This document shows positions 15,613 through 62,690 of a stretch of 64,000 nucleotides of DNA, in pieces. Position 1 is the stretch's first letter. Every line of letters begins with the position of its first letter. The stretch spans positions 62,001-126,000 of the forward strand of contig CAXHJY010000941.1 of the NCBI GenBank assembly GCA_964016885.1, written 5' to 3'. The notes under the pieces were generated by a model. The model worked only from the letters and a program-made list of their open reading frames with translations, searched no databases and had not been told where the DNA came from. This stretch comes from Eledone cirrhosa (taxonomy: Eukaryota). Position numbers and translations under genes: made by a program.

Positions 15613-16550
15613 TTATACTTCTCTTAGGTCAGTGTTGTTTGTTTGGGTGTTGTTGTTGTTCCACTCATTCTTTCTGTTTAGCTTTGGTCTTCTAATTTCT
15701 ATTTCACTGGCCTCTCTGATTTGCCTATCTGCTGGGTCATTCCTATGTTTAGATATTATTCTAATTTCTATGTTGTCTATGTTACCGTCATGTTGTTGTC
15801 TAGCATGTTCGTATAGTACTGACCCGTTTTTTTGTCCTTTTAGTTCCCCCCAGTGTTGGTCTATCCTTTCACCTATGCTACGAGCTGTCTCACCTATGTA
15901 TGTTGTTGTCGTGTTTCTGCAAGTACCCTCTGTACATCTTATGCTATAGACTACGTTTCTAGTTTTACAGTTTATCCGGGGGTTCACCTTACATATGATA
16001 CATTTCCTATTGGTACAGTGGGTTTTCTTAAAAGGGTAGGTTTTGCTGATCAGGGATTTTATGGTGGTTCCTGGCTTTTCTACCACCTTTATTTTTAAGT
16101 GGGTCTTTCTCAGGGCCTTTCTACACTGGTTAGCTAATTTCCCTCCAGGGGTGGCGTCCACAAACATGACACTCTGATATCTCTGGTTGTCGTACCATGA
16201 TGTGGCCTTCCCTATCTTATGTCTAGCCCTATCTAAGCTATTCCATGATTTGCTCCTGTATAGTGGGCAAATTCCTTTCATGTCCAGTTCTATGAGGGTC
16301 TTATACTTTTCCATGGCTCCTTCGTATACTCTGACTCTGTCTCTTTGGTTGTAGCCAGAGAACTGCATGCGGTTGATGAAGTGTTGGATGTGTCCTTCCA
16401 TTTCTGTTGGGTCGCACATGCTGGACACATTCTTCATCACTCGTACCAAATCTGCGATCAGAATATTAAACTTAGCACTACTGGACATTGCTGAGTTTTT
16501 GAGTATCAGGTATTTGGAGGCCATGGGTTTAGCATAGTGTGAGTGGAGAA
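15613..16550 (-). pseudogene. Inverted duplicate of PLE2 C-terminal ~312 codons (thumb + GIY-YIG)
   Basis: Translation identical to PLE2 from LHSHYAKPM to DLREV; no start of its own. Confidence 0.93.
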
Positions 16551-19500
16551 ATATGCTCAAAACGAATGCTGTAGGCATTTCAATAAGAAATTAGAATGGA
16601 TGAATAAGAAAAAACTACAAGAAAGGAAAATCGAATATTCTCAAAAATACCCAGATAACATCGACAACATCCGTATGAGTGATGTAAAACTACCGGAAGA
16701 ATTTACCAATGACCACACAGTAAATATCTATGGGAACACTTTAATCAGTGAACAAGAACAACAAATCCTAAAGTTACCACCAAAATTTGCCATCTACAAA
16801 AAGATTAACCCTATGGAATGCAAAACGGAGCTGGAAAAGTGTTTCACAAAAATACGTTGGAATGCAAAGGTAAACAACAACAACAATAATAACGGTAGTA
16901 GTAATATAAACAATAACTCTGGGTATAGAAATAACAGCCATAACCATAACAATGGCAGGAAAGTGAGAAATAGTGATAATAGTAATAATACTAGCGATAG
17001 ACAGAACAACAACAACCACAATAATAATAATAATAGAAACGTTAACCACAGACACAGCAACAGTGACCACAGTAGTAATAACGGTAACAATACGAACAAC
17101 AACAACAACAATAACCACAGTGGTAATAATGGAAATAGTACATGTAGCAACATCAACAAAAACAAGAAACATAATAATAGTAACAACCACAATGGTAGAA
17201 ATAGCAGTAACAACAACAACAATAACGGTGAAGTAAACAACAATACATCTAGCAATCATAACAATAATAATATTAATGCTAATGATAGAAACAACAACAA
17301 CCACCATGATAACAATAATAGCAACACACACAACTATGACGATAGAAATAACGACAACCCCTTAGAGAAACTATTTTTCAACCCAGCTGACAAAACATAT
17401 AAGATGGGTAATATCTATCCTACGAGGTTACCCTTTAATAAAAGAGTTTGCATACCACAGCAAATAGATGACGAGACGGAGGCACAGTTCACCATAGCTA
17501 GAAATAAGATTAGACAAGTAGTAGACAGGTACACTATGAGACAGAGCAGACCAGAGGCCCAACAACTTGGGATAAAACCTGTAGAAGGCTTGGTTAGCCT
17601 CAAGCAGCGCACAAGGGATGGTGAGGTAGTGTGTCTACCCACAGATAAGTCTGGTAGGATGTCAATAGATAGCATGCCGAACTACATCGAGGCAATGCAA
17701 CCCCACATCACCAACACGAGCGAAGTTGCACAACTAACACACGATGGGAGAGAAAAAATCCTCAACGCTCACATGATGATGTGGACTGACATCCTAAAGC
17801 CAAGCAGACGCACTGCCAACAACTTCCAGGCGTCTAACAATGGCATACCACCCTTGTATGGGCTCCGCAAAGACCACAAGACAGTCGACGACCCGACAAC
17901 AGGACCACCAACAAGACCCGTATGCGGAGCTAATATAGCTAGCAACTACAGGATCTCCTACTTCCTCTCAATGGTTATACGCCCCATAATCAAGATGTCC
18001 CCAGATGTATGTGAAAGTACAGAGGACCTCCTCAGCAGAATCAGTGAGTGCAACAAAAACAGGAGCCTATCCAACTGCATAATAGGCAGCATGGATGTGG
18101 TGTCACTGTACCCATCCATTAACATTGATTTTGCTGTGAAAAGATGTGTGGAGATGATCATTGAGAGTGAGGTGGAGTTCTGCGACGTCGACACAGACGA
18201 ACGGGGCCTCCTACTTAGACTTACCTACGACACTGACTACCTAGACAGCCATGACCTTAGATGTTTCTGCCCTAGTAGACCTATAAGAGGTAGACCCCCC
18301 ACCATAACCTCAATGGCTAAAAAGACTCCCATAGGAAGGTGGATTGGGTGGACCAAAGCTATACGGACACCCCAAAACACTGATCAGGTAAGAAAAATGG
18401 TCGCACATGCAATAGGGGCTAGTATCAAAACTACCCTAAAGGGCCACATATTTAAGTTCAATGAGAAAATCTACACCCAAAATGAGGGAGCAGCCATCGG
18501 CGTCAGCATAGCTGGTGATGTTGCCAACCTTTTCATGGTATGGTGGGAAAGGAGACTTAAAGATCTCCTCCTTAATGAAAGCTCCATAGACCTCATCATG
18601 TACTCTCGTTATGTAGACGATATCAATATAGTTATAAGAACACCCCCACTAGAGAGCACTAACAAGTTTGATTTAGAACGTAGCACGATGGAAAGCATCC
18701 AGCAGATAGCTAATTCCATACACCAGAGTATAACTGTAACTATAGACTTCCCTTCCAAACACCCTAACAATAGACTACCTGTATTAGACACAGAACTCTG
18801 GATTAACACTATAGACGAGAGAGCCCAAATTCTCCACTCACACTATGCTAAACCCATGGCCTCCAAATACCTGATACTCAAAAACTCAGCAATGTCCAGT
18901 AGTGCTAAGTTTAATATTCTGATCGCAGATTTGGTACGAGTGATGAAGAATGTGTCCAGCATGTGCGACCCAACAGAAATGGAAGGACACATCCAACACT
19001 TCATCAACCGCATGCAGTTCTCTGGCTACAACCAAAGAGACAGAGTCAGAGTATACGAAGGAGCCATGGAAAAGTATAAGACCCTCATAGAACTGGACAT
19101 GAAAGGAATTTGCCCACTATACAGGAGCAAATCATGGAATAGCTTAGATAGGGCTAGACATAAGATAGGGAAGGCCACATCATGGTACGACAACCAGAGA
19201 TATCAGAGTGTCATGTTTGTGGACGCCACCCCTGGAGGGAAATTAGCTAACCAGTGTAGAAAGGCCCTGAGAAAGACCCACTTAAAAATAAAGGTGGTAG
19301 AAAAGCCAGGAACCACCATAAAATCCCTGATCAGCAAAACCTACCCTTTTAAGAAAACCCACTGTACCAATAGGAAATGTATCATATGTAAGGTGAACCC
19401 CCGGATAAACTGTAAAACTAGAAACGTAGTCTATAGCATAAGATGTACAGAGGGTACTTGCAGAAACACGACAACAACATACATAGGTGAGACAGCTCGT

Positions 19501-19767
19501 AGCATAGGTGAAAGGATAGACCAACACTGGGGGGAACTAAAAGGACAAAAAAACGGGTCAGTACTATACGAACATGCTAGACAACAACATGACGGTAACA
19601 TAGACAACATAGAAATTAGAATAATATCTAAACATAGGAATGACCCAGCAGATAGGCAAATCAGAGAGGCCAGTGAAATAGAAATTAGAAGACCAAAGCT
19701 AAACAGAAAGAATGAGTGGAACAACAACAACACCCAAACAAACAACACTGACCTAAGAGAAGTATAA
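16551..19767 (+). CDS. PLE RT + GIY-YIG endonuclease with Asn-rich insert (N-terminus missing at inversion junction)
   Basis: Open ~1070 aa. [46 protein letters not shown]...[16 protein letters not shown]. Confidence 0.94.
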
Positions 19768-21391: not shown

Positions 21392-22637
21392 CTAGACTAA
21401 AGTTCTAGTTTGTAGGAAAGAAAATAAGGCTGCAGTCCCATCTGGGAAATGGCCATGCTCAGTGTGTAGGAAAGACATAGGTAGAAACTCCATTTTATGT
21501 CCCAAATGCAAAGTATGGGTGCATAAAAGATGTAGTGGGATCACAGGTAAGCTAACTAAGAACATAGATTTTACATGTGGCCGGTGCTCTGGTGCAATAA
21601 GTAGCAGCAAGTGCCCACAAAATACTAGCTCCTTCAACTGCGCAGAGGGTTCTATAGAAATAGTGGACAGCTTCCGTTACCTGGGTGACAAAATCAGCAG
21701 TGGGGGAGGGTGCTCTGAAAGTACAGTAGCTAGAGTCAGAACTGGATGGAAAAAGTTCAGAGAGCTTATACCACTATTAGCCGCTAGAGGGTTCTCCCTA
21801 AAAATGAAAGGCAGGTTATACGATGCCTGCATACGAACAGCAATGCTGCATGGCAGTGAGACCTGGGCATTGTGTGCAGAGGATATACGCAGACTAGAGA
21901 GGAACGAAGCTTGCATGCTCCGCTGGATGTGCAATAGTAATATACGTGAACGGCAAAGCATAAACGAACTAAGGAAAAAATTAGAAATAAGAGGGATCAG
22001 ATGTTGTTTACTCGAGAGAAGGCAACGTTGGTACGGTCACGTGATGCGCATGAAAGACGACAGCTGTATAACAAAGTGCAGGGCAATAAAGATAGACGGT
22101 AGCCACGGAGTAGGCAGACCCAGAAAAACATGGGACGAGCTGATAAATTCTGACCTCACACGCTTACACCTCTCCAAGTCAATGTCACTGGACCGAGACC
22201 TTAGGCGGTACTCAGTAATAGAGAAGACCCGCCTTACCGAAATACAAAGTAAAAACCTACTACAGTCAGTAGGCATCTCTATCAAAACACCCCCCCGTAC
22301 CACCACCTCCACCCCATCCACACCGCCCCTTTCAATGTAAAGTTATGTTGGTCCCACAACATCCAGGCCGAAACAAATGAGATCGTGTAGGTGTCACGAC
22401 AAAAAAACACACAGTCCACGCTGTAATGTGGCCGTGTAGGCAACACGGTAAAAACCTCCCAGCCCCACACTGTAAATGTGGTTGGTGTTAAGAAGGGCAT
22501 CCAACTGTAGAAAACCCGCCAGACAGTCCTATGCGAGCAAGACAACCACTCTTGCCTCAAGTGGGAAAACCCCCGTCCAAACCCATGCAAGCATGGAACA
22601 CGGACGCTAAACCTGATGATGATGATGATGATGATGA
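21392..22637 (+). mobile_element. 5'-truncated RTE family A copy (PHD finger to (GAT)n tail)
   Basis: Protein nearly identical to the C-terminus of 2316-5432. 3' UTR and GAT tail present. Confidence 0.95.
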
Positions 22638-23815
<1,178 letters not shown>

Positions 23816-24396
23816 TATACAAATATACGCAATATATATTTGAAATGAGTCTGTCAAAATGATATGAAAAGTTATTATTTAAAGATTCAAGTAAAAGAAA
23901 ATGATAGGGAAAATATTTTGAAAACATACTTGTCAGGCAAATAGTACTAAGTTAAATGCAAACTATACGAGCAGAACATGACTTGGCAATAGATATGATT
24001 GACATATAACATTGGAAAACTGAAGTTATGAACAAGATAAAGACAGTAAGGCACCAGACATCGATAAAGTAAGTCCAAAGATGCTGACAGCTAATGTGAT
24101 CCAGATACTAACAGAACTTCCTCATCATCTATGTAAGGAAAGATACTTTAGAGCTGATTTAATGTAGCGAATGTGGAAAATATTCATATATGCTCTATAC
24201 ACATACATCCCAAGGATAAAAGAATATGATATTACAATAAATTAGCATATAAATTGTTATACGATATATTTATATGACATGATATATATATATACATATA
24301 TATGAGTGTGTGGGTGTATATAATCAGTTCCTGATTATTACTAGAATTCTATAAGTATCAAACATTCATGATTTTCAGCAAACAGGCGGAGTACTT

Positions 24397-24441
24397 AGCT
24401 TTGATAAGCACCAAAAAGTGCGAAACAGAGCTCTGTCAGCT
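24397..24441 (+). ncRNA. Type I hammerhead-like motif with U3-A8 core, inside a longer hairpin (24371-24465)
   Basis: AGCU-UUGAUAA-GCAC-caaaaa-GUGC-GAAA-CAGAGCUCUG-UC-AGCU. Outer arms ATTTTCAGCAAACAGG / CCTGTTTGCTGAAAAT. Confidence 0.7.
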
Positions 24442-24701
24442 TTATCTCCCCTGTTTGCTGAAAATTAAAGTAAGTGAGAGTGTCACTACTCTAAAACAAT
24501 AGCGTAAGGTCTTCGAAATGCTCTTAATTAAGCATACAGTGTATTGCAAAATACACTATATATACATTCATATATATATATATCGCTATTTCAGAGCACC
24601 AATTCTAATATGTATATATATATACGTCTAACCCATGCTAGCGTGGAAGATGGACGTTAAACAAAGATGATGATGATGATACATACATATACACATATGT
24701 A

Positions 24702-26447: not shown

Positions 26448-29277
26448 CCACCCATACTTTGCATTTGGGACATAAAATGGAGTTTCTACCTACGCCTTTC
26501 CTACACACTGAGCATGGCCATTTCCCAGAAGGGACCGCCGCCTTATTTTCTTTCCTACAAACTAGAACTTTAGTCTTAGATAGGTTAATTTTAAGTCCTT
26601 TTGATTCTAGGCCGTGCTTCCATGTTTGGAATTTCTTCTCTAGCTCGGCCATTGATTCAGCTATGAGTGTCAGGTCGTCTGCGTATAGGAGTTCCCATGG
26701 GCAGCCGGTCTTGAACTCCTCTGTTATAGCCTGAAGGGCAATAATAAATAGTAGGGGGCTGAGAACAGAGCCCTGATGGACGCCAACTTTTACGCTAAAC
26801 TCTTCACTATATTCGTTGTTAATTCTAACCTTGCTGACTGTTTCTTTATACATGGCTTGTATAGCTCTCACAAGCCATTCGTCAACCCCTAGTTTTCTAA
26901 GAGCCCACCAGATAATGGAACGGGGGACTCTGTCGAAGGCTTTCTCCTAGTCGACAAAAGCTAAGTAGAGGGGTTTACCTTTAGCTAGGTACTTCTCCTG
27001 TAGTTGTCGTACAATGAAAAGAGCGTCTGTGGTACTTTTGCCTGACACAAACCCGAACTGCATTTCATCTAGGTCAATTCTCTCTCTGATTAGTTGCGCT
27101 ATTACTTTTTCCGTGACCTTCATGACCTGGTCGATTAATTTAATGCCTCTATAGTTACTCCTATCAAGGGCATCTCATTTACCCTTATAACAGTTAACGA
27201 TGATGCTGCTATGCCAGTCCTTCGGAACAACCCCATTCTGTACGACTTGGTTAACTATGCGGGTGACCATGGTGTGTCCCACCGTGCCAGATGCCTTCAG
27301 CATCTCAGCAACTATTTCCGAAGGCCCAGCCGCCTTACCCGTCTTCATATCCTTGATTGCCTTACTTATTATACTCCCCTCGACTAACACTGCTGGTCCC
27401 TCTATTGGGTCGATGTGGGGGAGACTGTCTTTCTCCCATTTATTCTCCTCATTTAGTAGCCTTTCATAGTGACACTTCCAAGCTACCTTCTTATCAGCGT
27501 CGGTGATGGCAAGTACGCCGTCATCATTAAGTACACACTTCTCCCCGACAATATCACGGTTTTCCTTGACGCATTGCCTAGCAATCCTGAACACCTCACG
27601 TTTTTGGTCCACGCGTTGTAGAATATGCTTGAACTTTCTTTCCTCTGCTTCCCTTCTTGCGAAGTACACTTGTCTCCTAGCTTCCCTCCTGGCCACTTGA
27701 TAGTCTTCTCTACTTCCCCCATCCCGCCATACTTTCCAAGCCTTCTTTTTGGCCTTAATTGACCCCTCCACCTTACTGTTCCACCACCATGTTACTCTCC
27801 TCCTGCCTACAGGCCTGCTCCAGCCACAGACTTCGTCTGTCGCCATCAGTAGGTTTGCTTTCAGAAATTCCCACTGTCCCTCTATATTGTCCGACTCTAA
27901 ATGCTCTTCCTTTCTGTCGAAAGCATCAAGTAATATGCTTTGAAATTTATTTCTGGCTGTGGGGTCCTTTAGCTTCCATATTTTTCTCCTGAGGATAGTC
28001 CTCTTCTGCTGTCGAGTACGTCTCGTCCTGACTATGAGGTCGCTAATTATCAGTCTATGTTGGGAGGTGCATTCTTCATGGGGGAGGGATTTAGTGTTTA
28101 CAACAGACACTCTGTCGCGTCTTCTGGTAAGGATATAATCTACCTGGCTTGTGTGTTCCCCGGATCTATAGGTGATCAGGTGATTGTCACGTTTTTTGAA
28201 GTTAGTGTTACAGATAGTTAGGTTATTTGCGTCACAGAATTCCAGGATTCTGGAGCCTTCTTCATTTCTAGTACCAAACCCATTGCCTCCATGGATTTCG
28301 TCGTAGCCGTCACAATGTTGTCCAACGTGACCATTTAGGTCGCCTGCAATAATTATATAGTCACTGTCGGTTATTTGGGAGGTAGTGAGCATCAGTGTCT
28401 CATAGAATCTGTCTTTTATAGTGCCGTGCAGTCCGGATTGGGGTGCGTACGCAGATATTACTGTCACCATAGTTCTATTGAGGGCAAGTCGTATTTTAAT
28501 TATTCTGTCGTTCACTCTATTTACGTCTATTATCTTATCTGCCCACTTTTCTGCTACCATGATTCCTACTCCACCCAGCCCATCGCCGTTTCCCACCCAG
28601 AAAAGCTTATAACATCGTTTTTTACCCTCAATGAATCTAGCAGACCCACCCCTCCACCTGGTCTCTTGAATACAACAAACATCGACCTCCTTACGTTCAA
28701 GCATTTCTACAACCTCGTTAGCGCGACCCTTTAGGGTGCCTACATTTATGGTACCAACTCTGAAGTTTTGGATTGCGTTTGGAGGGTGGGGGCGGTGGGG
28801 GGCGGGGGGAGATGGGGTTATGTTAGCCATCCGCGGACGAAACAAAGAGGAGTGCTCGCATTCTCGTCCACGAGGTGAATTTGTCTTTATCTTTGGCATT
28901 TTCGCTGAGCGTCCAGATTTTTCTCTCTCTTCCACTCTCCAGGATTCCATAATCCATCCATCCATCCATCATATATCGAAAGGCAACCGGGCAAGCGATA
29001 GTATAGGCCTCTGGCTTATGATTGGTCCGCGTAATAACAATGTTGGTGCGTGGGAGCGTGTGGGAGGGGTGTTGGGTAGCTAGCTGGAAGGTTAGGATTG
29101 TATGAGATCTCCGTGTTTAACAAGCGATTAACAAAAAACAAAAATACAAGATTTGTTCTGTTCAATACGACAAAAACTCCCGTATTTAACATAAATAACA
29201 AAAAATACAGATTTGCTTTAGGAAAACGTTTGCTACATTTAGGATTTTGCAAGATTGGATGTTTGGACTAGGTACGA
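26448..29277 (-). mobile_element. RTE family A copy with 5' end, 3'-truncated, two nonsense mutations
   Basis: ORFs 27175-28965 and 26350-26871 match the first RTE. GGA>TGA at 27175-27177 and TTG>TAG at ~26947. It ends at CPKCKVWV. The 5' UTR limit (~29277) is uncertain. Confidence 0.9.
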
Positions 29278-31561
29278 AAATATATATATATATATATCAT
29301 TATCATCATCATTTAGCATCTATTTTCTATGCTTGCATGGGTCAGACTGGTTGCCCACATTATGAGACAAGTCTGGCCACACCATACCTTGTTCAAATAA
29401 AACTGCATTTTGGTTGAGTACCCTTCTTAACACCAACCACGTATTACACACACAATTCAAATGGTTTTCTGAAGGGAAATGGAAGGGAACCACAATTGAA
29501 TCATCATCATCATCATTGTTTTTACGTCTATTCTTTCGCACTTGCATGGGTCAGATGGGAGTTAAATAAGGTACTCAAATACATTAGTAGAGAAAGTACA
29601 TATATTTTTTCATATAGAAATTACTTCAATAGGACTAGAATTGATTCATTCATTTTAAATCATCAGGAATGTATATATATATGTGTATCTCTGTGTATGA
29701 AATGCAGTGCGTCTAAAAGCTTCAGCTAATTGAAATTATTCTTGCAGTTTAGAGACAAGATCTCCTTTGTCTAAAAACATCAAGCGAGGAAGTTACCTCT
29801 AATAGGATGAGTTTTTTCATGTTATCGAGAATAATAGATTTTTGCCTCTAGATATATACAAGGAATTCTAAACATGATAAAATATAAAGGTTGTCCAGCA
29901 TTTCACATCACAGGGAAATAATCCTCTGAATTTATGTCCTCAACTGAAATAATCAACGAATGACAAAAAGAAATAAAAAATGAAGAGAAAAAAAGGAGAG
30001 CAGTTTTTTAGTTTATTATCTCCCCCAAACAAAATACTCTCTCTGTACACACACACACACACCACACACACACATTGATTTGTTATTTGTGTACTGTTAC
30101 TCTGTGATAAAAATCTTTCTGCTTGACTAATAAAATTCTTCTGAGTGGTGGAACAATAGTGGCCATATTTCTAACAAAACAATTCCAAGATAATACTTAT
30201 CAAAAAACAAATGATTTTCCTATATATTTCTTAATCTGAGAAACCTTTGATAGTCTACACTCAGAAATTTAGGTATAAATTGATAGAATTGTACATATAC
30301 ACACATGCATGTATATTTTCTGGTAGTTTGTTAAAGTTATCTGACAAATTTGACTCGGTAGTGAGCAATCCCACCTTTATGTATGAAATTACATTGACTA
30401 AGGGGTGTTTTCTTTGTGTAACTCTACTATTTATTACTAGTGTAACACATTACATACGCCTTCTTTGATTAAATTGCTCTTTATTTACCAATATAAAAAG
30501 TCTCTCTTTTTCCTTTTCTTGCTGATAAATGCTCCGCTACTAGGCCCTCATTTTTATCTCTTCTTTATCTCAACACATGACTTTGAAAGAGACATAACAT
30601 GTTTATCTGCTCTTTTCTACACTTACTTTTTTGACAATAGTTTATTTATATTTCCTTCCTTCAATGTGTGAATGGAATAGTTGTCATCATCAACATTATC
30701 ACCATCATCATCATTATTATCATTAGCATCAGTTACCGTATAAGCAAGACAAGGTCAGCCAACTGGACACTGCCCACAACAGGACAACCTGTCTAACCCA
30801 TGTTAGCGTCGAAGAACGGACATAAAACGGTGATGATGATGATAATGACCACTATCATCATCATTCTCATCATCATGATCATTTTTCCTCTTCCTCCTCA
30901 CCATCATCATCATCACTATCGTTTTACATTCATTTTCCATGCTAGCATTGATTGAGTGTAACATTTTTAGGCAGTGTTCTATTGTCTTTCATGATGACAA
31001 CCCTCACTAGTTTTTTTTTTTTTAAGTGAAGTACTAATTTTTGCATGCATGTCAAACTCCTGAGTTGTAGGACATTTGTGATTGCTGGAAGATGGATGTT
31101 AAATAGTGCTGCTGATGATGATGATGGTTATATATATATATATGTATATATCTATATATAATGTTAATAAATATGAAGACACTGTTCTGCTTTTCCATAC
31201 TTTGATTAATTGAATAATTACCATCATGTACTTTTCAGAGGTATTTGACTATTGTTACATAAGAATAACTCAAGTCGAGCACATCCTCATTAAAACGCAC
31301 TTTCCAAAGTTGATGGCATGAAGACTGAAGGACGTAGGTTGTTATTCTTACGTAACAATTGTTTGACATCTCTGAAATGTACATAACAGTTGTTATTCAA
31401 TAAATTGAAGTATGGAAACGTAGAACTGTGACTTCATATTTATTAACATACCAATACTTAGATAGATAGATACAACAGATGTGGACTACTAAAGCCTGAT
31501 TACAGTGATAAAATGCAACACTGACAATCAACTAAAATTGAAATTAAGACTATATATATAT

Positions 31562-31953
31562 ATATTGGTAAACGGAATAGAAAATGCTGACAAATTGTTC
31601 ACAGTTGAAAAATGGTTTAATTAGGAATAAAAGAGTATTAATAATTGTATGGGTTAGTATTCAGTTGTGGTTTTAAGTTTTTAAGTTTTTACCGGTTGCG
31701 CATTTCTAAATGCTTTTCAAAAATAATTTTGAGACAGAGTGTCCGTGCTGTTTGCTCTGATCTGAGCAAACAGCACGGACACTCTGTCTCAAAATTATTT
31801 TTGAAAAGCATTTAGAAATGCGCAACCGGTAAAAACTTAAAACCACAACTGAATACTAACCCATACAATTACTAATACTCTTTTATTCCTAATTAAACCA
31901 TTTTTCAACTGTGAACAATTTGTCAGAATTTTCTATTCCGTTTACCAATATAT
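31562..31953. repeat. ~390-bp near-perfect palindrome without spacer, TA-flanked, with a hammerhead-like motif in each arm
   Basis: Arms mirror around GCTCTGATCTGAGC (~31755-31768). The right arm has TTTT-TTGAAAA-GCATTT-ag-AAATGC-GCAA-CCGG-TA-AAAA at ~31797-31835. Confidence 0.92.
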
Positions 31954-32721
31954 AATAACTTGTGTGTTACACCTCTATTCTTTTAACTATATATATATAT
32001 ATAATGGATTCCCAGATAGTTTCTAGTTACCAAATTTACCTAAAGGAATTGGCTGACCTGAAGCTTTAGTAGAAGTCATTTACCCAAGGTGCTATGCAGT
32101 GGGATAGAACCCAAAGTAAACTTCTTAATCACATAGAATAAATGTTGAAAATGAACTCTGTCAATTATTAATTTGAACCATCCTTAACCAGCTGTCAACT
32201 AACTTTGTTTATAACTTGATAATGGTTTGCTATGGAATGGCCATATTAATCACTTCCTCATTGAATTAAACAAATTCAAACACATTTTGTTTCAATTGCA
32301 TTACAGTTTGTCAAGAACTAACTGCAGTGTATTTTTATTTTCATTTATCATTTATGGGATCTGATTATGTTCCTTAACATCTTAAATAAATTATAACTTT
32401 ATCACAATTATACAAAAAATAAATGTATTGAAGGATATAAATGTATCTGAGTATAATGCCTATAAAATTGTTACAGCATAATGTTATAAAATTTAATGAA
32501 TCTAATATTTAGTTGTGAATATATAGAGGCTGTTACCAGCATTTGTAATAATTTGTTTATGATGATCTTTAGAATTCCTTCTCATGCCAGAATTGTGTAC
32601 ATCATCACCACGACCATGACCACAACAGACACCACCATCAACAACAACACCACCACTACAACTACCACTATCATCATCATCACCATGACAAGCAGGATCT
32701 TGACCACTATCAAAGGAAACA

Positions 32722-55814: not shown

Positions 55815-58800
55815 CACCAACATTATCACCACCAGCACTCCCACCATTATCACCACCAGCACTCCCACCATTATCACCACCAACACTCCCACCATTATCA
55901 CCACCAATACTCCCACCATTATCACCACCAATACTCCCACCATTATCACCACCAACACTGCCACCATTATCACCACCACTCCCACCATTATCATCACCAA
56001 CACTGCCACCATTATCACCACCAGCACTCCCACCATTATCATACCAGCACTGCCACCATTATCACCACCAACACTGCCACCATTATCACCACCAACACTG
56101 CCACCATTATCACCATCAGCACTGCCACCATTATCACCACCAGCACTGTCACCATTATCACCACCAACACTGCCACCATTATCACCACCAACACTCCCAC
56201 CATTATCACTACCAGCACTCCCACCATTATCACCACCAGCACTCCCACAATTATCACCACCACTCCCACCATTATCACCACCAACACTGCCACCATTATC
56301 ACCACCAACACTGCCACCATTATCACCAACAACGCTGCCACCATTATCACCACCAACACTCCCACCATTATCACCACCAGCACTCCCACCATTATCACCA
56401 CCAACACTCCCACCATTATCACCACCACCACTCCCACCATTATCACCACCAACACTGCCACCATTATCACCACCAACACTGCCACCATTATCACCACCAA
56501 CACTCCCACCATTATCACCACCAACACTCCCACCATTATCACCACCAACACTCCCACCATTATCACCACCAAAACTGCCACCATTATCATCACCACCACT
56601 CCCACCATTATCACCACCAACACTGCCACCATTATCACCACCACCACTGTCACCATTATCACCACCAGCACTGGCACCATTATCACCACCAACATGCCAC
56701 CATTATCACCACCAACACTGCCACCATTATCACCACCAGCGCTCCCACCATTATCACCACCAGCACTCCCACCATTATCACCCCCAACATTCCCACCATT
56801 GTCACCACCACTCCCACCATTATCACCACCAACACTGCCACCATTATCACCACCAGCACTCCCAGCATTATCACCACCAGCACTGCCACCATTATCACCA
56901 CCACCACTGCCACCATTATCACCACCAACACTGCCACCATTATCACCACCAACACTGCCACCATTATCACCACAAACACCCCCACCATTATCACCACCAG
57001 CACTCCCACCATTATCACCACCAGCACTGCCACCATTATCATCACCACTCCCACCATTATCACCACCAACACTGCCACCATTATCACCACCAGCACTGCC
57101 ACCATTATCACCACCAACACTGTCACCATTATCACCACAACACTCCCACCATTATCACCACCACCACTCCCACCATTATCACCACCAACACTGCCACCAT
57201 TATCACCACCAGCACTCCCACCATTATCACCACCACCACTCCCACCATTATCACCACCACCACTCCCACCATTATCACCACCACCACTCCCACCATTATC
57301 ACCACCAACACTGCCACCATTATCACCACCAGCACTCCCACCATTATCACCACCACCACTCCCACCATTATCACCACCACCACTCCCACCATTATCACCA
57401 CCAACACTGCCACCATTATCACCACCAGCACTCCCACCATTATCACCACCAGCACTCCCACCATTATCACCACCACCACTTCCACCATTATCACCACCAC
57501 CACTCACACCATTATCACCACCAACACTGCCACCATTATCACCATCAGCACTTCCACCATTATCATCACCAGCACTCCCACCATTATCACCACCACCACT
57601 CCCACCATTATCACCACCAACACTGCCACCATTATCACCATCAGCACTTCCACCATTATCACCACCAGCACTCCCACCATTATCACCACCACCACTCCCA
57701 CCATTATCACCACCAACACTGCCACCATTATCACCACCAGCACTCCCACCATTATCACCACCAACACTGCCACCATTATCACCAGCAGCACTCCCACCAT
57801 TATCACCACCAGCACTGTCACCATTATCACCACCAACACTCCCACCATTATCACCACCAACACTGCCACCATTATCACCACCAGCACTCCCACCATTATC
57901 ACCACCAACACTGCCACCATTATCACCACCAGCACTCCCACCATTATCACCACCAGCACTGTCACCATTATCACCACCAACACTCCCACCATTATCACCA
58001 CCAACACTGCCACCATTATCACCACCAACACTGCCACCATTATCACCACCAGCACTCCCACCATTATCACCACCAACACTGCCACCATTATCACCACCAC
58101 CACTCCCACCATTATCACCACCAACACTGCCACCATTATCACCACCAACACTGCCACCATTATCATCACCAACACTCGCACCATTATCACCACCAGCACT
58201 CGCACCATTATCACCACCAACACTGTCACCATTATCACCACCACCACTCCCACCATTATCACCACCAACACTCACACCATTATCACCACCACTCCCACCA
58301 TTATTACCACCAACACTGCCACCATTATCACACCACTCCACCATTATCACCACCAACACTGCCACCATTATCACCACCAACACTGCCACCATTATCACCA
58401 CCAACACTGCCACCATTATCACCACCAGCACTCCCACCATTATCACCACCACTCCCACCATTATCACCACCAACACTGCCACCATTATCACCACCACTCC
58501 CACCATTATCACCACCAACACTGCCACCATTATCACCACCACCACTGCCACCATTATCACCACCACTCCCACCATTATCACCACCAACACTGCCACCATT
58601 ATCACCATCAGCACTTCCACCATTATCATCACCAGCACTCCCACCATTATCATCACCAGCACTCCCACCATTATCACCACCAACACTGTCACCATTATCA
58701 CCACCACCACTCCCACCATTATCACCACCAACACTGCCACCATTATCACCACCAACACTGCCACCATTATCATCACCACCACTCCCACCATTATCACCAC

Positions 58801-61800
58801 CAGCACTCGCACCATTATCACCAGCAACACTCCCACCATTATCACCACCAACACTGCCACCATTATCACCACCACCACTGCCACCATTATCACCACCAAC
58901 ACTGCCACCATTATCACCACCAACACTGCCACCATTATCATCACCACCACTCCCACCATTATCACCACCAACACTCCCACCATTATCACCACCAGCACCC
59001 CCACCATTATCACCACCAGCACTGCCACCATTATCACCACCAACACTCGCACCATTATCACCACCAGCACTCGCACCATTATCACCACCAACACTGTCAC
59101 CATTATCACCACCACCACTCCCACCATTATCACCACCAACACTCACACCATTATCACCACCAGCACCCCCACCATTATCACCACCAACACTGCCACCATT
59201 ATCACCACCAACACTGCCACCATTATGACCACCAACACTCCCACCATTATCACCACCAGCACTCCCACCATTATCATCACCATTCCCACCATTATCACCA
59301 CCAACACTGCCACCATTATCACCACTAACACTCCCACCATTATCACCACCAGCACTCTCACCATTATCATCACCGCTCCCACCATTATCACCACCAACAC
59401 TCCCACCAATATCACCACCAACACTCCCACCATTATCACCACCAGCACTCCCACCATTATCACCACCAACACTGCCACCATTATCACCACCAACACTGCC
59501 ACCATTATCACCACCAGCACTCCCACCATTATCACCACCACCACTCCCACCATTATCACCACCAACACTGCCACCATTATGACCACCAACACTCCCACCA
59601 TTATCACCACCAGCACTCACACCATTATCACCACCAGCACTCCCACCATTATCACCACCAACACTGCCACGATTATCACCACCAACACTCCCACCATTAT
59701 CGCCACCAGCACTCCCACCATTATCACCACCAACACTGCCACGATTATCACCACCAACACTGCCACGATTATCACCACCAACACTCCCACCATTATCACC
59801 ACCAGCACTCCCACCATTATCACCACCAACACTGCCACCATTATCACCACCAACACTGTCACCATTATCACCACCACCACTGCCACCATTATCACCACCA
59901 ACACTGCCACGATTATCACCACCAACACTGCCACGATTATCACCACCAGCACTCCCACCATTATCACCACCAACACTGCCACGATTATCACCACCAACAC
60001 TCCCACCATTATCACCACCAACACTGCCACGATTATCACCACCAACACTCCCACCATTATCACCACCAACACTCCCACCATTATCACCACCAACACTCCC
60101 ACCATTATCACCACCAACACTGTCACCATTATCACCATCAACACTGCCACCATTATCACCACCAACACTGCCACCATTATCACCACCAACACTGTCACCA
60201 TTATCACCACCACCACTCCCACCATTATCACCACCAACACTGCCACCATTATCACCACCAACACTCCAACCATTATCACCACCAGCACTCCCACCATTAT
60301 CACCACCAACACTGCCACCATTATCACCACCAACACTGCCACCATTATCACCACCAACACTGGCAGCATTATCACCACCAACACTCCCACCATTATCACC
60401 ACCAGCACTCCCACCATTATCACCACCAACACTGCCACCATTATCACCACCAACACTGCCACCATTATCACCACCAACACTCCCACCATTATCACCACCA
60501 CCACTGCCACCATTATCACCACCAGCACTGCCACCATTATCATCACCACTCCCACCATTATCACCACCAACACTGCCACCATTATCATCACCACTGCCAC
60601 CATTATCTCCACCACCACTGCCACCATTATCCTCACCAGCACTCCCACCATTATCACCACCACCACTGCCGCCATTATCACCACCAGCACTGCCACCATT
60701 ATCACCACCAGCACTGCCACCATTATCACCACCAACACTGCCACCATTATCACCACCAGCACTCACACCATTATCACCACCAACACTGTCACCATTATCA
60801 CCACAACACTCCCACCATTATCACCACCAACACTGCCCCCATTATCACCACCAACACTGTCACCATTATCACCACCACCACTCCCACCATTATCACCACC
60901 AACACTGCCACCATTATCACCATCAGCACTTCCACCATTATCATCACCAGCACTCCCACCATTATCACCACCACCACTCCCACCATTATCACCACCAACA
61001 CTGCCACCATTATCACCATCAGCACTTCCACCATTATCATCACCAGCACTCCCACCATTATCACCACCACCACTCCCACCATTATCACCACCAACACTGC
61101 CACCATTATCACCATCAGCACTTCCACCATTATCATCACCACCACTTCCACGATTATCACCACCAACACTCCCACCATTATCACCACCAACACTGCCACC
61201 ATTATCACCACCAACACTTCCACCATTATCATCACCAGCACTCCCACCATTATCACCACCACCACTCCCACCATTATCACCACCAACACTGCCACCATTA
61301 TCACCACCAGCACTTCCACCATTATCATCACCAGCACTCCCACCATTATCACCACCACCACTCCCACCATTATCACCACCACCACTCCCACCATTATCAC
61401 CACCAACACTGTCACCATTATCACCACAACACTGCCACCATTATCACCACCACCACTCCCACCATTATCACCACCAACACTGCCACCATTATCACCACCA
61501 ACACTCCCACCATTATCACCACCACCACTCCCACCATTATCACCACCACCACTCCCACCATTATCACCACCACCACTCCCACCATTATCACCACCAACAC
61601 TGCCACCATTATCACCACCAGCACTGCCACCATTATCATCACCACCACTCCCACCATTATCACCATCAGCACTTCCACCATTATCATCACCAGCACTCCC
61701 ACCATTATCATCACCAGCACTCCCACCATTATCACCACCAACACTGTCACCATTATCACCACCACCACTCCCACCATTATCACCACCAACACTGCCACCA

Positions 61801-62690
61801 TTATCACCACCAACACTCCAACCATTATCACCACCAGCACTCCCACCATTATCACCACCAACACTGCCACCATTATCACCATCAGCACTTCCACCATTAT
61901 CATCACCAGCACTCCCACCATTATCACCACCACCACTCACACCATTATCACCACCAACACTGCCACCATTATCACCATCAGCACTTCCACCATTATCACC
62001 ACCAGCACTCCCACCATTATCACCACCACCACTCCCACCATTATCACCACCAACACTGCCACCATTATCACCACCAACACTGTCACCATTATCATCACCA
62101 GCACTCCCACCATTATCACCACCACCACTCCCACCATTATCACCACCAACACTGTCACCATTATCACCACAACACTCCCACCATTATCACCACCACCACT
62201 CCCACCATTATCACCACCAACACTGCCACCATTATCACCACCACCACTCCCACCATTATCACCACCAGCACTGCCACCATTATCATCACCAGCACTGCCA
62301 CCATTATCACCACCACTACTCCCACCATTATCACCACCAACACTGCCACCATTATCACCACCAGCTCTCCCACCATTATCACCACCAGCACTCCCACCAT
62401 TATCACCACCAACACTCCCACCATTATCACCACCAGCACTCCCACCATTATCACTACCAGCACTCCCACCATTATCACCACCAACACTCCCACCATTATC
62501 ACCACCAACACTCCCACCATTATCACTACCAGCACTCCCACCATTATCACCACCAGCACTGCCACCATTATCACCACCAACACTGCCACCATTATCACCA
62601 CCAACACTCCCACCATTATCACCACCAACACTCCCACCATTATCACCACCAACACTCCCACCATTATCACCACCAGCACTCCCACCTTTA
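55815..62690. repeat. ~6.9-kb minisatellite, 24-bp unit CCACCATTATCACCACC(A/C)(A/G/C)CACT(G/C)
   Basis: The unit translates as PPLSPPTL / HHYHHQHC / TIITTNTA, with occasional 21- and 23-bp units. Confidence 0.97.

What the first reader, a model, noticed from the sequence alone, without database searches (positions are those of the whole stretch)
24371..24476. Apparently intact U3-A8 hammerhead nested in a long hairpin and followed by GTAAGT
Seen: the core is UUGAUAA instead of CUGAUGA, with perfect stems I and II, a 12-nt palindromic stem III (ACAGAGCUCUGU), a GUC site, a 16-bp outer stem and then AAA-GTAAGT. Known: the 3-8 Watson-Crick pair is required, U3-A8 is a rare natural covariant, and Penelope has a 5' intron. 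Inference: a solo pLTR or small ribozyme-bearing non-autonomous retroelement (retrozyme-like) between TA tracts.
Basis: partly seen in the sequence, partly recalled or inferred. Interest (0 to 1): 0.7.

Follow-up and report, generated by a model that had tools for sequence, protein, structure and literature searches.

The report
Variant-core hammerhead in Penelope-type retrozyme
This is one copy of a 319-base non-coding repeat, found at over a thousand places in this animal genome, that carries a likely self-cutting RNA motif with an already known swapped base pair in its core and is probably pasted in by Penelope-type jumping-gene enzymes.

Summary
There is a type I hammerhead at 24397-24441 with a U3-A8 core, a 12-nt palindromic stem III, a GUC site and a 16-bp outer stem. 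It is not a solo pLTR. It lies in a 291-bp copy (24319-24609) of a 319-bp non-coding unit. The motif has 1,415 matches genome-wide, as dispersed copies, dimers and long arrays, so this is an animal non-LTR retrozyme.

U3-A8 is the family norm (140 of 147 segments). A colinear sister family, about 75% identical, keeps C3-G8, and the stems covary across families. This points to selection on the fold.

Insertions carry the Penelope signature: (TA)n targets, partial tandems, inverted arms and two fixed 3' ends (35 of 40 two-armed insertions use one of each).

GTAAGT is probably not a splice donor: its G pairs in a hairpin and changes G-C to A-U in one subfamily. Folding predicts that a single copy or circle is off and a tandem dimer is on.

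Cleavage, expression and the partner enzyme are unshown. U3-A8 and retrozymes are both published. This scan has already noted what looks like the same family, and sister families, on other DNA of this genome.

The parts
24319..24609 (+). One 5'-truncated copy (unit positions u1-u287) of the 319-bp retrozyme unit; holds a single hammerhead
   Evidence: BLAST of a full unit from a tandem locus against the window locus; 97-99% identity to the best copies elsewhere
24371..24386 (+). 5' arm of the 16-bp outer stem (extension of stem I)
   Evidence: Fold; 9 of 15 pairs show two-sided changes across families
24388..24400 (+). 5' strand of stem I: distal GGAG, internal loop UACUU, proximal AGCU
   Evidence: Sequence, Rfam HH9 alignment
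24401..24407 (+). Catalytic core U3-U4-G5-A6-U7-A8-A9 (U3-A8 in place of C3-G8)
   Evidence: U3-A8 in 140 of 147 segments; C3-G8 in the sister family
24408..24424 (+). Stem II (4 bp, 6-nt loop) and G12-A13-A14
   Evidence: pair 10.2-11.2 is C-G in 81 and U-A in 63 of 149 segments
24425..24436 (+). 12-nt palindromic stem III; predicted to pair with a second copy in a double hammerhead
   Evidence: Self-duplex -20.1 kcal/mol; cross-pairing probability at least 0.98 in 7 of 8 real dimers
24437..24441 (+). C17 (predicted cut between 24437 and 24438) and 3' strand of stem I
   Evidence: Hammerhead consensus; cleavage untested
24446..24465 (+). 3' strand of distal stem I and 3' arm of the outer stem
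   Evidence: Fold, covariation
24469..24490 (+). Hairpin that contains GTAAGT (24470-24475); a structural helix rather than a splice donor
   Evidence: u152-u171 is G-C in 132 and A-U in 12 of 163 segments; u157-u167 is U-A in 150 and C-G in 7 of 164
24570..24583 (+). Internal TA run: first fixed 3' end of family insertions (site S1)
   Evidence: End mapping
24584..24609 (+). 26-nt tail ending at the second fixed 3' end (site S2), followed by target TA; shared with the abundant 310/311-bp sister family
   Evidence: an 18-mer spanning the tail start has 21,282 exact matches; alignment

Best explanation
This is a single-ribozyme genomic copy of a 319-bp animal non-LTR retrozyme, a non-coding repeat whose tandem transcripts likely self-cleave as double hammerheads and are probably copied back into (TA)n tracts by a Penelope-like element (PLE) reverse transcriptase/endonuclease. 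Shown by sequence: unit length, tandem and dispersed copies, fixed U3-A8 core, covarying stems, TA targets, two fixed 3' ends and inverted arms. Predicted by folding only: in one copy or in the monomer circle the core pairs with stem III (off), while in a tandem dimer the palindromes of two copies pair and the active double hammerhead forms (on). Inferred: cleavage at two sites releases a 319-nt monomer that a host ligase would circularise; a PLE protein would start reverse transcription inside the RNA at S1 on one target end and at S2 on the other, and read through the ribozyme site and the unit junction. The window copy has one ribozyme, so it could not release a monomer on its own and is likely a dead-end product. 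U3-A8 likely arose once from C3-G8 in the ancestor of subfamilies A-D.
For: Copy number: 1,415 motif matches at up to 1 mismatch, 0 for the reversed control. Unit 319 bp with head-to-tail junctions in 66 of 96 insertion clusters; arrays of about 25 and at least 17 units (L051, L052). Longest ATG ORF 44 aa. Core: U3-A8 in 140 of 147 segments; 95 of the first 100 listed of 188 hits to a pattern that left positions 3, 7 and 8 free are U3-A8, none C3-G8. Sister family E has CUGAUGA in 32 of 34 motif matches; the 310-bp family has CUGAAGA at the same offset. The U3-A8 rows form one clade, 100/100. Covariation: 16 of 36 pairs change on both sides, 94% of cells paired, 0 of 500 shuffles, slid controls 1-5 pairs. 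PLE signature: 37 of 39 one-armed clusters end at S1 or S2; 57 of 96 clusters are head-to-head two-armed; 35 of the 40 with both ends at fixed sites pair S1 with S2, p 1.4e-6. This matches the two internal start sites and tail shown in vitro for a PLE (PMC11167929). Rare variants are shared between units of one insertion at 6 of 169 (tandem) and 12 of 299 (opposite arms) sites, against 115 of 65,399 between loci. Folding.
Against: No cleavage or transcript was shown. Only 1 of 9 predicted Xenopus retrozyme dimers cleaved in vitro (bioRxiv 10.64898/2026.07.22.740005), so motif integrity does not guarantee activity. No autonomous partner was identified: the tail shows no significant similarity to the ends of 7 PLE families (133-500 of 500 shuffles reach the score). 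A circle is not required by the data, because uncleaved multimer RNA from arrays would also give more-than-unit copies, and PLE insertion in vitro did not need ribozyme cleavage (PMC11167929). The dimer fold is not universal: both active sites form at probability of about 0.5 or more in only 2 of 8 real dimers, one site in 6 of 8, none in the subfamily D dimer. In the artificial linked pairs the double hammerhead was the minimum-energy fold for 2 of 5. The covariation alignment is 9 hand-picked related rows, with the 310-bp row misaligned in stem III. Most loci were picked by patterns that contain part of the core. Most rare variants (96%) are not shared within an insertion.
Confidence: 0.8

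Rival explanations
1. Solo or detached pseudo-LTR of an autonomous Penelope-like element; the unit is just the PLE terminal repeat.
For: Same insertion signature as PLEs. Several autonomous PLE families here carry UUGANAA-type cores. Xenopus retrozymes are homologous to pLTRs (bioRxiv 10.64898/2026.07.22.740005). One locus, L070, has a PLE ORF and 3' UTR joined directly to the unit in the same direction.
Against: Upstream of the ribozyme lies another copy of the unit, not an ORF. Of 87 loci, 12 hold a PLE ORF match and only 2 have it upstream on the same strand within 1.5 kb; in L017 it is a separate PLE with its own end and TA tract. No similarity to the pLTRs in 30 GIY-YIG loci and 50 further PLE loci apart from nested retrozyme copies. 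The window copy's upstream DNA matched only itself. A remote pLTR origin remains possible.
Confidence: 0.07
2. Same element and same PLE-type integration, but the template is uncleaved linear multimer RNA from tandem arrays; the ribozyme is kept for another step (freeing transcripts from read-through, protein-assisted late cleavage) and no circle is used.
For: Long arrays exist. Copies read through the cleavage site. In the anole PLE system unprocessed RNA was the main substrate and ribozyme mutants still inserted (PMC11167929).
Against: Units and arms of one insertion share rare variants about 20-fold more often than units of different loci, as expected from one template copied more than once (small numbers, and gene conversion would also do it). 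Circles are shown for coral, mussel and axolotl retrozymes (PMC7229834).
Confidence: 0.1
3. GTAAGT is a working 5' splice donor, as in the Penelope 5' intron, with the ribozyme in a short exon.
For: It matches the donor consensus. A TTTTCAG acceptor-like word precedes the ribozyme in subfamilies A-C. GTAAGT is kept in family E at about 75% identity. In D. virilis Penelope an intron end abuts helix I (PMC4209133).
Against: G changes to A together with its pairing partner in subfamily C (A-U in 12 of 163 segments, 8 of 69 loci; 7 of 35 more). Subfamily D mostly has GTAAGC (3 of 4). The 310-bp family lacks it. Family E lacks the acceptor AG.
Confidence: 0.05
4. A satellite or repeat in which the ribozyme motif is a non-functional relic; U3-A8 is a dead double mutation carried along.
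For: No activity data. A lone copy is predicted to hide the core. Below the Rfam gathering score.
Against: Compensated changes in every helix and in the 3-8 pair itself. 28 of 122 columns differ between subfamily majorities, none of the 12 core columns (part of the core was in the search patterns). U3-A8 is reported active in vitro (PMC3088659, citing a paper I could not read).
Confidence: 0.03

Closest known systems
Animal non-LTR retrozymes (Acropora, Mytilus, axolotl Rtz331/Rtz353; Cervera and de la Pena 2020, PMC7229834, parts 2-4 of 6 and passages read)
   Same: Non-coding unit of about 320 bp, GC 32-36%, one type I hammerhead per unit, monomers to long tandem arrays, well-folded predicted circle (z -3.1 to -6.8 for 8 monomers), coexists with PLEs.
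   Different: U3-A8 core; a 4-bp, 12-nt palindromic stem III; the ribozyme is predicted to be self-blocked in the circle (13 of 13 monomers), whereas that paper predicts most animal circles leave it free; PLE-type inverted arms and tail rather than target-site duplications; RNA not shown here.
Vertebrate non-LTR retrozymes as non-autonomous PLE derivatives (Li, Clavereau and Pollet 2026, bioRxiv 10.64898/2026.07.22.740005, parts 1-3 of 5 read; supplements closed)
   Same: Same proposal of PLE-driven mobilisation; mixture of monomers, dimers and multimers.
   Different: Their evidence is co-occurrence and pLTR homology. Here the evidence is insertion geometry, and no homologous pLTR was found.
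PLE minimal hammerheads including the Schistosoma Cercyon U3-A8 variant (PMC4209133, parts 1-2 of 4 read)
   Same: U3-A8 covariation, palindromic stem III, dimer-dependent design.
   Different: Those are minimal motifs in pLTRs of coding elements. This one is a full-size hammerhead with an HH9-like stem I internal loop and stem II loop, in a non-coding unit.
Poseidon PLE of Anolis (PAc), internal initiation (PMC11167929, parts 1-2 of 4 read)
   Same: Two adjacent start sites bounding a 30-40-nt tail, AT-rich targets, copies that span the ribozyme site.
   Different: PAc is autonomous, with a C3-G8 minimal ribozyme that needs the protein. The present element encodes no protein.
Natural U3-A8 hammerheads (Perreault et al. 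2011, PMC3088659, section 8 read)
   Same: Same compensated core pair, described as natural and as active in vitro.
   Different: Here both states occur in colinear sister families of one genome, so the swap can be placed on a tree.

Membership tests
Type I hammerhead ribozyme | Core with a 3-8 Watson-Crick pair, UGA at 4-6, A9, GAA 12-14, A15.1-U16.1, H17 | tested here: met
   U3-A8 pair, all other core positions canonical
Type I hammerhead ribozyme | Three helices with stem I open, supported by covariation | tested here: met
Type I hammerhead ribozyme | Rfam hammerhead model at gathering score | tested here: not met
   HH9 26.5 bits against 52; 0 hits at gathering score in 5 loci
Type I hammerhead ribozyme | Self-cleavage at H17 | not testable with these tools
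   Needs an in vitro assay
Animal non-LTR retrozyme | Short (150-450 bp) low-GC non-coding unit with one type I hammerhead | tested here: met
   319 bp, GC 0.32-0.36, longest ORF 44 aa
Animal non-LTR retrozyme | Tandem copies with at least two consecutive complete ribozymes | tested here: met
   Met for the family (L012, L021, L034, L045, L051, L052, L054); the window copy itself is a monomer
Animal non-LTR retrozyme | No LTRs flanking an internal region | tested here: met
   Copies consist only of unit sequence; PBS and PPT were not searched separately
Animal non-LTR retrozyme | Expressed as linear and circular monomer RNA | not testable with these tools
Penelope-like element (autonomous) or its pLTR | RT plus GIY-YIG ORF attached to the repeat | tested here: not met
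   one junction in L070
Penelope-like element (autonomous) or its pLTR | Partial tandems, inverted 5'-truncated arm, 30-40-bp tail at one end, (TA)n bias | tested here: met
   definition from PMC8557442 passages
Penelope-like element (autonomous) or its pLTR | End sequence shared with an autonomous family | tested here: inconclusive
   No significant match to the families sampled; the sample is incomplete
Penelope 5' spliceosomal intron | GT donor conserved across the family | tested here: not met
   GT in 138 of 166 segments; compensated loss in subfamily C

The most novel reading that the evidence does not exclude
A retrozyme lineage with a built-in on/off switch and a readable integration mechanism. 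The stem III palindrome locks the catalytic core in the monomer circle and unlocks it as a double hammerhead in multimers. A dimeric Penelope-type protein, possibly the family joined to the unit in locus L070, copies one RNA circle from two fixed internal sites onto both ends of a cut TA tract. Sister families provide a natural C3-G8 versus U3-A8 pair for testing whether the swap tunes that switch.
Probability: 0.3. Interest if true: 0.7.

Novelty: new member of a known kind. Interest (0 to 1): 0.4.

Why it matters
The ribozyme variant and the element class are both published, so the motif alone is ordinary. The family is useful in three ways. First, it gives genomic evidence for a step that the retrozyme papers I read propose but do not show, namely mobilisation by Penelope-like proteins: the copies carry the PLE tail and pair two different fixed ends across inverted arms. 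Second, colinear sister families with C3-G8 and U3-A8 are a natural compensatory swap inside one lineage. Third, the predicted monomer-off, dimer-on fold offers an answer to how animal retrozyme circles avoid cutting themselves, which PMC7229834 leaves open. It also shows that descriptors fixed on CUGANGA, and Rfam at gathering score, miss a family with over a thousand copies.

Tried and rejected
Expression: no RNA holder listed. The four coded runs are contigs of unrecorded kind, and laying them says nothing on expression, ends or splicing. only gave the lead to the stem II variant.

Rfam over the whole window gave only low-complexity miRNA matches among the 150 listed. A bacterial promoter scan was at chance level, 2 sites against 1.8, and does not apply to an animal. 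The core pattern had 0 matches in metagenome contigs.

Partner search: the window's two PLE families and five to six others showed no significant end similarity. The one nominal hit on real sequence, PLE-1 at 14 of 500 with the TA run included, vanished with the tail alone (142 of 500). L027, where a PLE-1 end abuts one arm, is better read as a nested insertion into the unit's TA run. L070 may be a template switch or a microhomology-joined insertion with deletion; it is 1 of 63 5' ends screened, several of which were not true free ends.

The 9 kcal/mol gap came from a misregistered hand-built constraint; (2.9 kcal/mol) replaces it. A within-subfamily mutation deficit in the core (16 of 1,152 against 364 of 10,560) is biased by pattern selection. 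On BLAST-picked loci it was 2 of 444 against 82 of 4,070, p 0.015, which I treat as weak.

Arrays L051 and L052 were left out (mutation test); L035 (duplicate of L034) was left out throughout.

Papers not held and not read: Lunse et al. (PMC5785218) and Przybilski and Hammann 2007 (PMC1986816). They may hold activity data for U3-A8 dimers. bioRxiv supplements are closed and may list related families. Literature searches: 'hammerhead' + 'U3-A8' gave 1 paper, 'U3A8' 0, 'hammerhead ribozyme' + 'octopus' + 'retrotranspos' 3 papers, 2 listed, neither title pointing to this family (listing only).

Full report
Observation. The window shows, on the + strand, a type I hammerhead: stem I AGCU at 24397-24400 and 24438-24441, core UUGAUAA at 24401-24407, a 4-bp stem II with a 6-nt loop, GAA, a 12-nt palindromic stem III at 24425-24436 and C17 at 24437. 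It is enclosed by a 16-bp stem (24371-24386 with 24450-24465) and followed by GTAAGT at 24470. The stretch folds far better than its shuffles (z -7.2, 0 of 200). A strict descriptor finds 0.05 such motifs per shuffled window. Rfam HH9 matches weakly (26.5 bits, gathering score 52).

What it belongs to. A genome search with the surrounding 251 bases had 1,220 candidates; the 40 scored gave 62 matches, the best at 97-99% identity. Tandem loci define a 319-bp unit; the window copy covers u1-u287 (24319-24609) and holds one ribozyme. A 26-nt motif pattern has 1,415 matches at up to one mismatch and 0 for the reversed control. Besides monomers and dimers there are arrays of about 25 and at least 17 units (L051, L052). 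The unit has no ORF over 44 aa. Upstream of full copies lies another copy of the unit. Of 87 loci, 12 contain PLE ORF sequence, and only two have it upstream on the same strand within 1.5 kb. One is a separate PLE with its own end. The other, L070, is a direct junction to a PLE 3' UTR through a 6-nt microhomology. The 433 bases upstream of the window copy matched only themselves. So this is a non-LTR retrozyme copy, not a solo pLTR.

The U3-A8 core. It is the family norm: 140 of 147 aligned segments, and 95 of the first 100 listed of 188 hits to a pattern that left positions 3, 7 and 8 free, with no C3-G8 among them. Four subfamilies (A-D, 70-95% identical to the window copy) share it. A colinear sister family E, about 75% identical, has CUGAUGA in 32 of 34 motif matches in 25 loci; one match belongs to another element and a few are junction fragments. 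The abundant 310/311-bp family, about 60% identical, has CUGAAGA at the same offset and shares the tail region. In a 20-row tree the U3-A8 rows form one clade (100/100) apart from E; the root is midpoint only and the 310-bp row is a long branch. One swap from C3-G8 is the simplest reading. On a 9-row alignment, 16 of 36 pairs change on both sides, including the 3-8 pair; 0 of 500 shuffles reach this and slid controls give 1-5. The rows are related and hand-picked, so this is support, not a probability. U3-A8 is published: about 1,300 motifs in Schistosoma, found from a PLE (PMC4209133), and a natural covariant reported as active in vitro (PMC3088659). UUGANAA-type cores also follow the ORFs of several autonomous PLE families in this genome.

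The GTAAGT. GT is present in 138 of 166 segments. The G pairs with u171 in a hairpin: G-C in 132 and A-U in 12 of 163 segments, A-U in 8 of 69 loci. A neighbouring pair also covaries (U-A 150, C-G 7 of 164). Subfamily C thus loses the donor while keeping the helix, and the 310-bp family lacks the word. In its favour, family E keeps it. A structural role is the better reading; splicing could not be tested without RNA reads.

How it integrates. In 96 insertion clusters, 57 are head-to-head two-armed and 39 one-armed; 66 read through the unit junction. Outer 3' ends fall at the unit's internal TA run (S1) or about 26-33 nt further (S2), mostly followed by (TA)n. Of the one-armed clusters, 37 of 39 end at S1 or S2. 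Of 40 two-armed clusters with both ends at fixed sites, 35 pair S1 with S2 (p 1.4e-6); the other 17 have at least one end elsewhere. Partial tandems, an inverted arm, a 30-40-bp tail at one end and (TA)n bias define PLE insertions (PMC8557442), and the tail corresponds to two internal reverse-transcription start sites shown in vitro (PMC11167929). Rare variants are shared within an insertion at 6 of 169 and 12 of 299 sites, against 115 of 65,399 between loci. That fits one template copied more than once but does not separate a circle from a homogenised array or from gene conversion. The partner is not identified. The window's abundant PLE family has a 59-nt tail; two other families have a tail of about 33 nt after an internal TA run, like this element, one of them the family joined in L070. 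None of 7 families shows significant tail similarity.

Predicted switch. In the window copy the stem I strand and core pair with stem III, and the active stems have probability 0.01; the active fold lies 2.9 kcal/mol higher. In all 13 circular monomers folded, stem III has probability at most 0.06 and stem I at most 0.17. In 8 real dimers the two palindromes cross-pair at 0.98 or more in 7; one active site forms at about 0.5 or more in 6 and both in 2; the subfamily D dimer forms none. These are secondary-structure predictions without tertiary contacts or co-transcriptional folding. Dimer-dependent cleavage through a palindromic stem III is known (PMC4209133, PMC7229834). A self-blocked circle differs from what PMC7229834 predicts for most animal retrozymes.

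Verdict. A real, probably functional hammerhead in a new member of a known class. Cleavage, expression, the circle and the partner protein are inferred. Earlier notes of this scan describe what appears to be the same 320-bp U3-A8 family and its sister families elsewhere in this genome. I had the unit, the two ends and the inverted arms before those look-ups; the test of S1-with-S2 pairing followed their lead. The subfamily labels, S1, S2 and the PLE numbers are my own working names. Those notes call the genome a cephalopod's, which I did not test.

Noticed in passing
window 8360-11548 (-) and 16543-19764 (+): Two long PLE ORFs (1,063 and 1,074 codons, RT plus C-terminal GIY-YIG with a cysteine linker). 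The first family is very abundant and young: 39,372 candidates, 150 scored at 98-100% identity.
   Followed up: partly
window 8068 (-) and 25668 (+): Minimal C3-G8 hammerheads in the terminal repeats of the first PLE family; its insertions end at two sites 59 nt apart.
   Followed up: partly
window 12720-13060 (-), core at 12816: Another hammerhead-bearing repeat with a CUGAUGA core, a long stem II and an 8-nt palindromic stem III; related copies with inverted pieces lie in L008, L011 and L019.
   Followed up: no
L217, L230, L235: A PLE family with a long 3' UTR whose hammerhead-like motif has UUGAAAA and GCAA in place of GAAA in all three copies seen, an unusual core change.
   Followed up: no
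L131-L158 group, L220-L222, L226, L227, L232, L223, L228: At least three further autonomous PLE families with UUGANAA-type (U3-A8) hammerhead-like motifs after the ORF.
   Followed up: partly
L070:2570-2600: Direct same-strand junction of a PLE 3' UTR to the retrozyme through a 6-nt microhomology, with the rest of that PLE's end missing: a possible template-switch chimera.
   Followed up: partly
L161-L185; L058, L071-L100: Sister retrozyme family E (C3-G8; 2,719 candidates) and the 310/311-bp family; all share the tail region, whose 18-mer occurs 21,282 times.
   Followed up: partly
window 31559-31954: A near-perfect 400-bp palindrome whose centre resembles the terminal repeat of the L217/L230 PLE family by eye; probably an inverted pair of PLE ends.
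   Followed up: no
window 2298-5429 (+), copies at 21394-22611 and 26449-28865; short 3' piece at 24630-24680: A LINE with AP endonuclease, RT and a PHD finger; a short 3' fragment with a (TGA)n tail sits right after the retrozyme copy.
   Followed up: no
window 55817-62690: A 6.9-kb array of a 24-bp unit (288 copies) with strong strand skew and long open frames.
   Followed up: no
L051: Array with a higher-order period of about 1,155 bp caused by a recurring deletion junction (u61 to u183) that removes one ribozyme per period.
   Followed up: no
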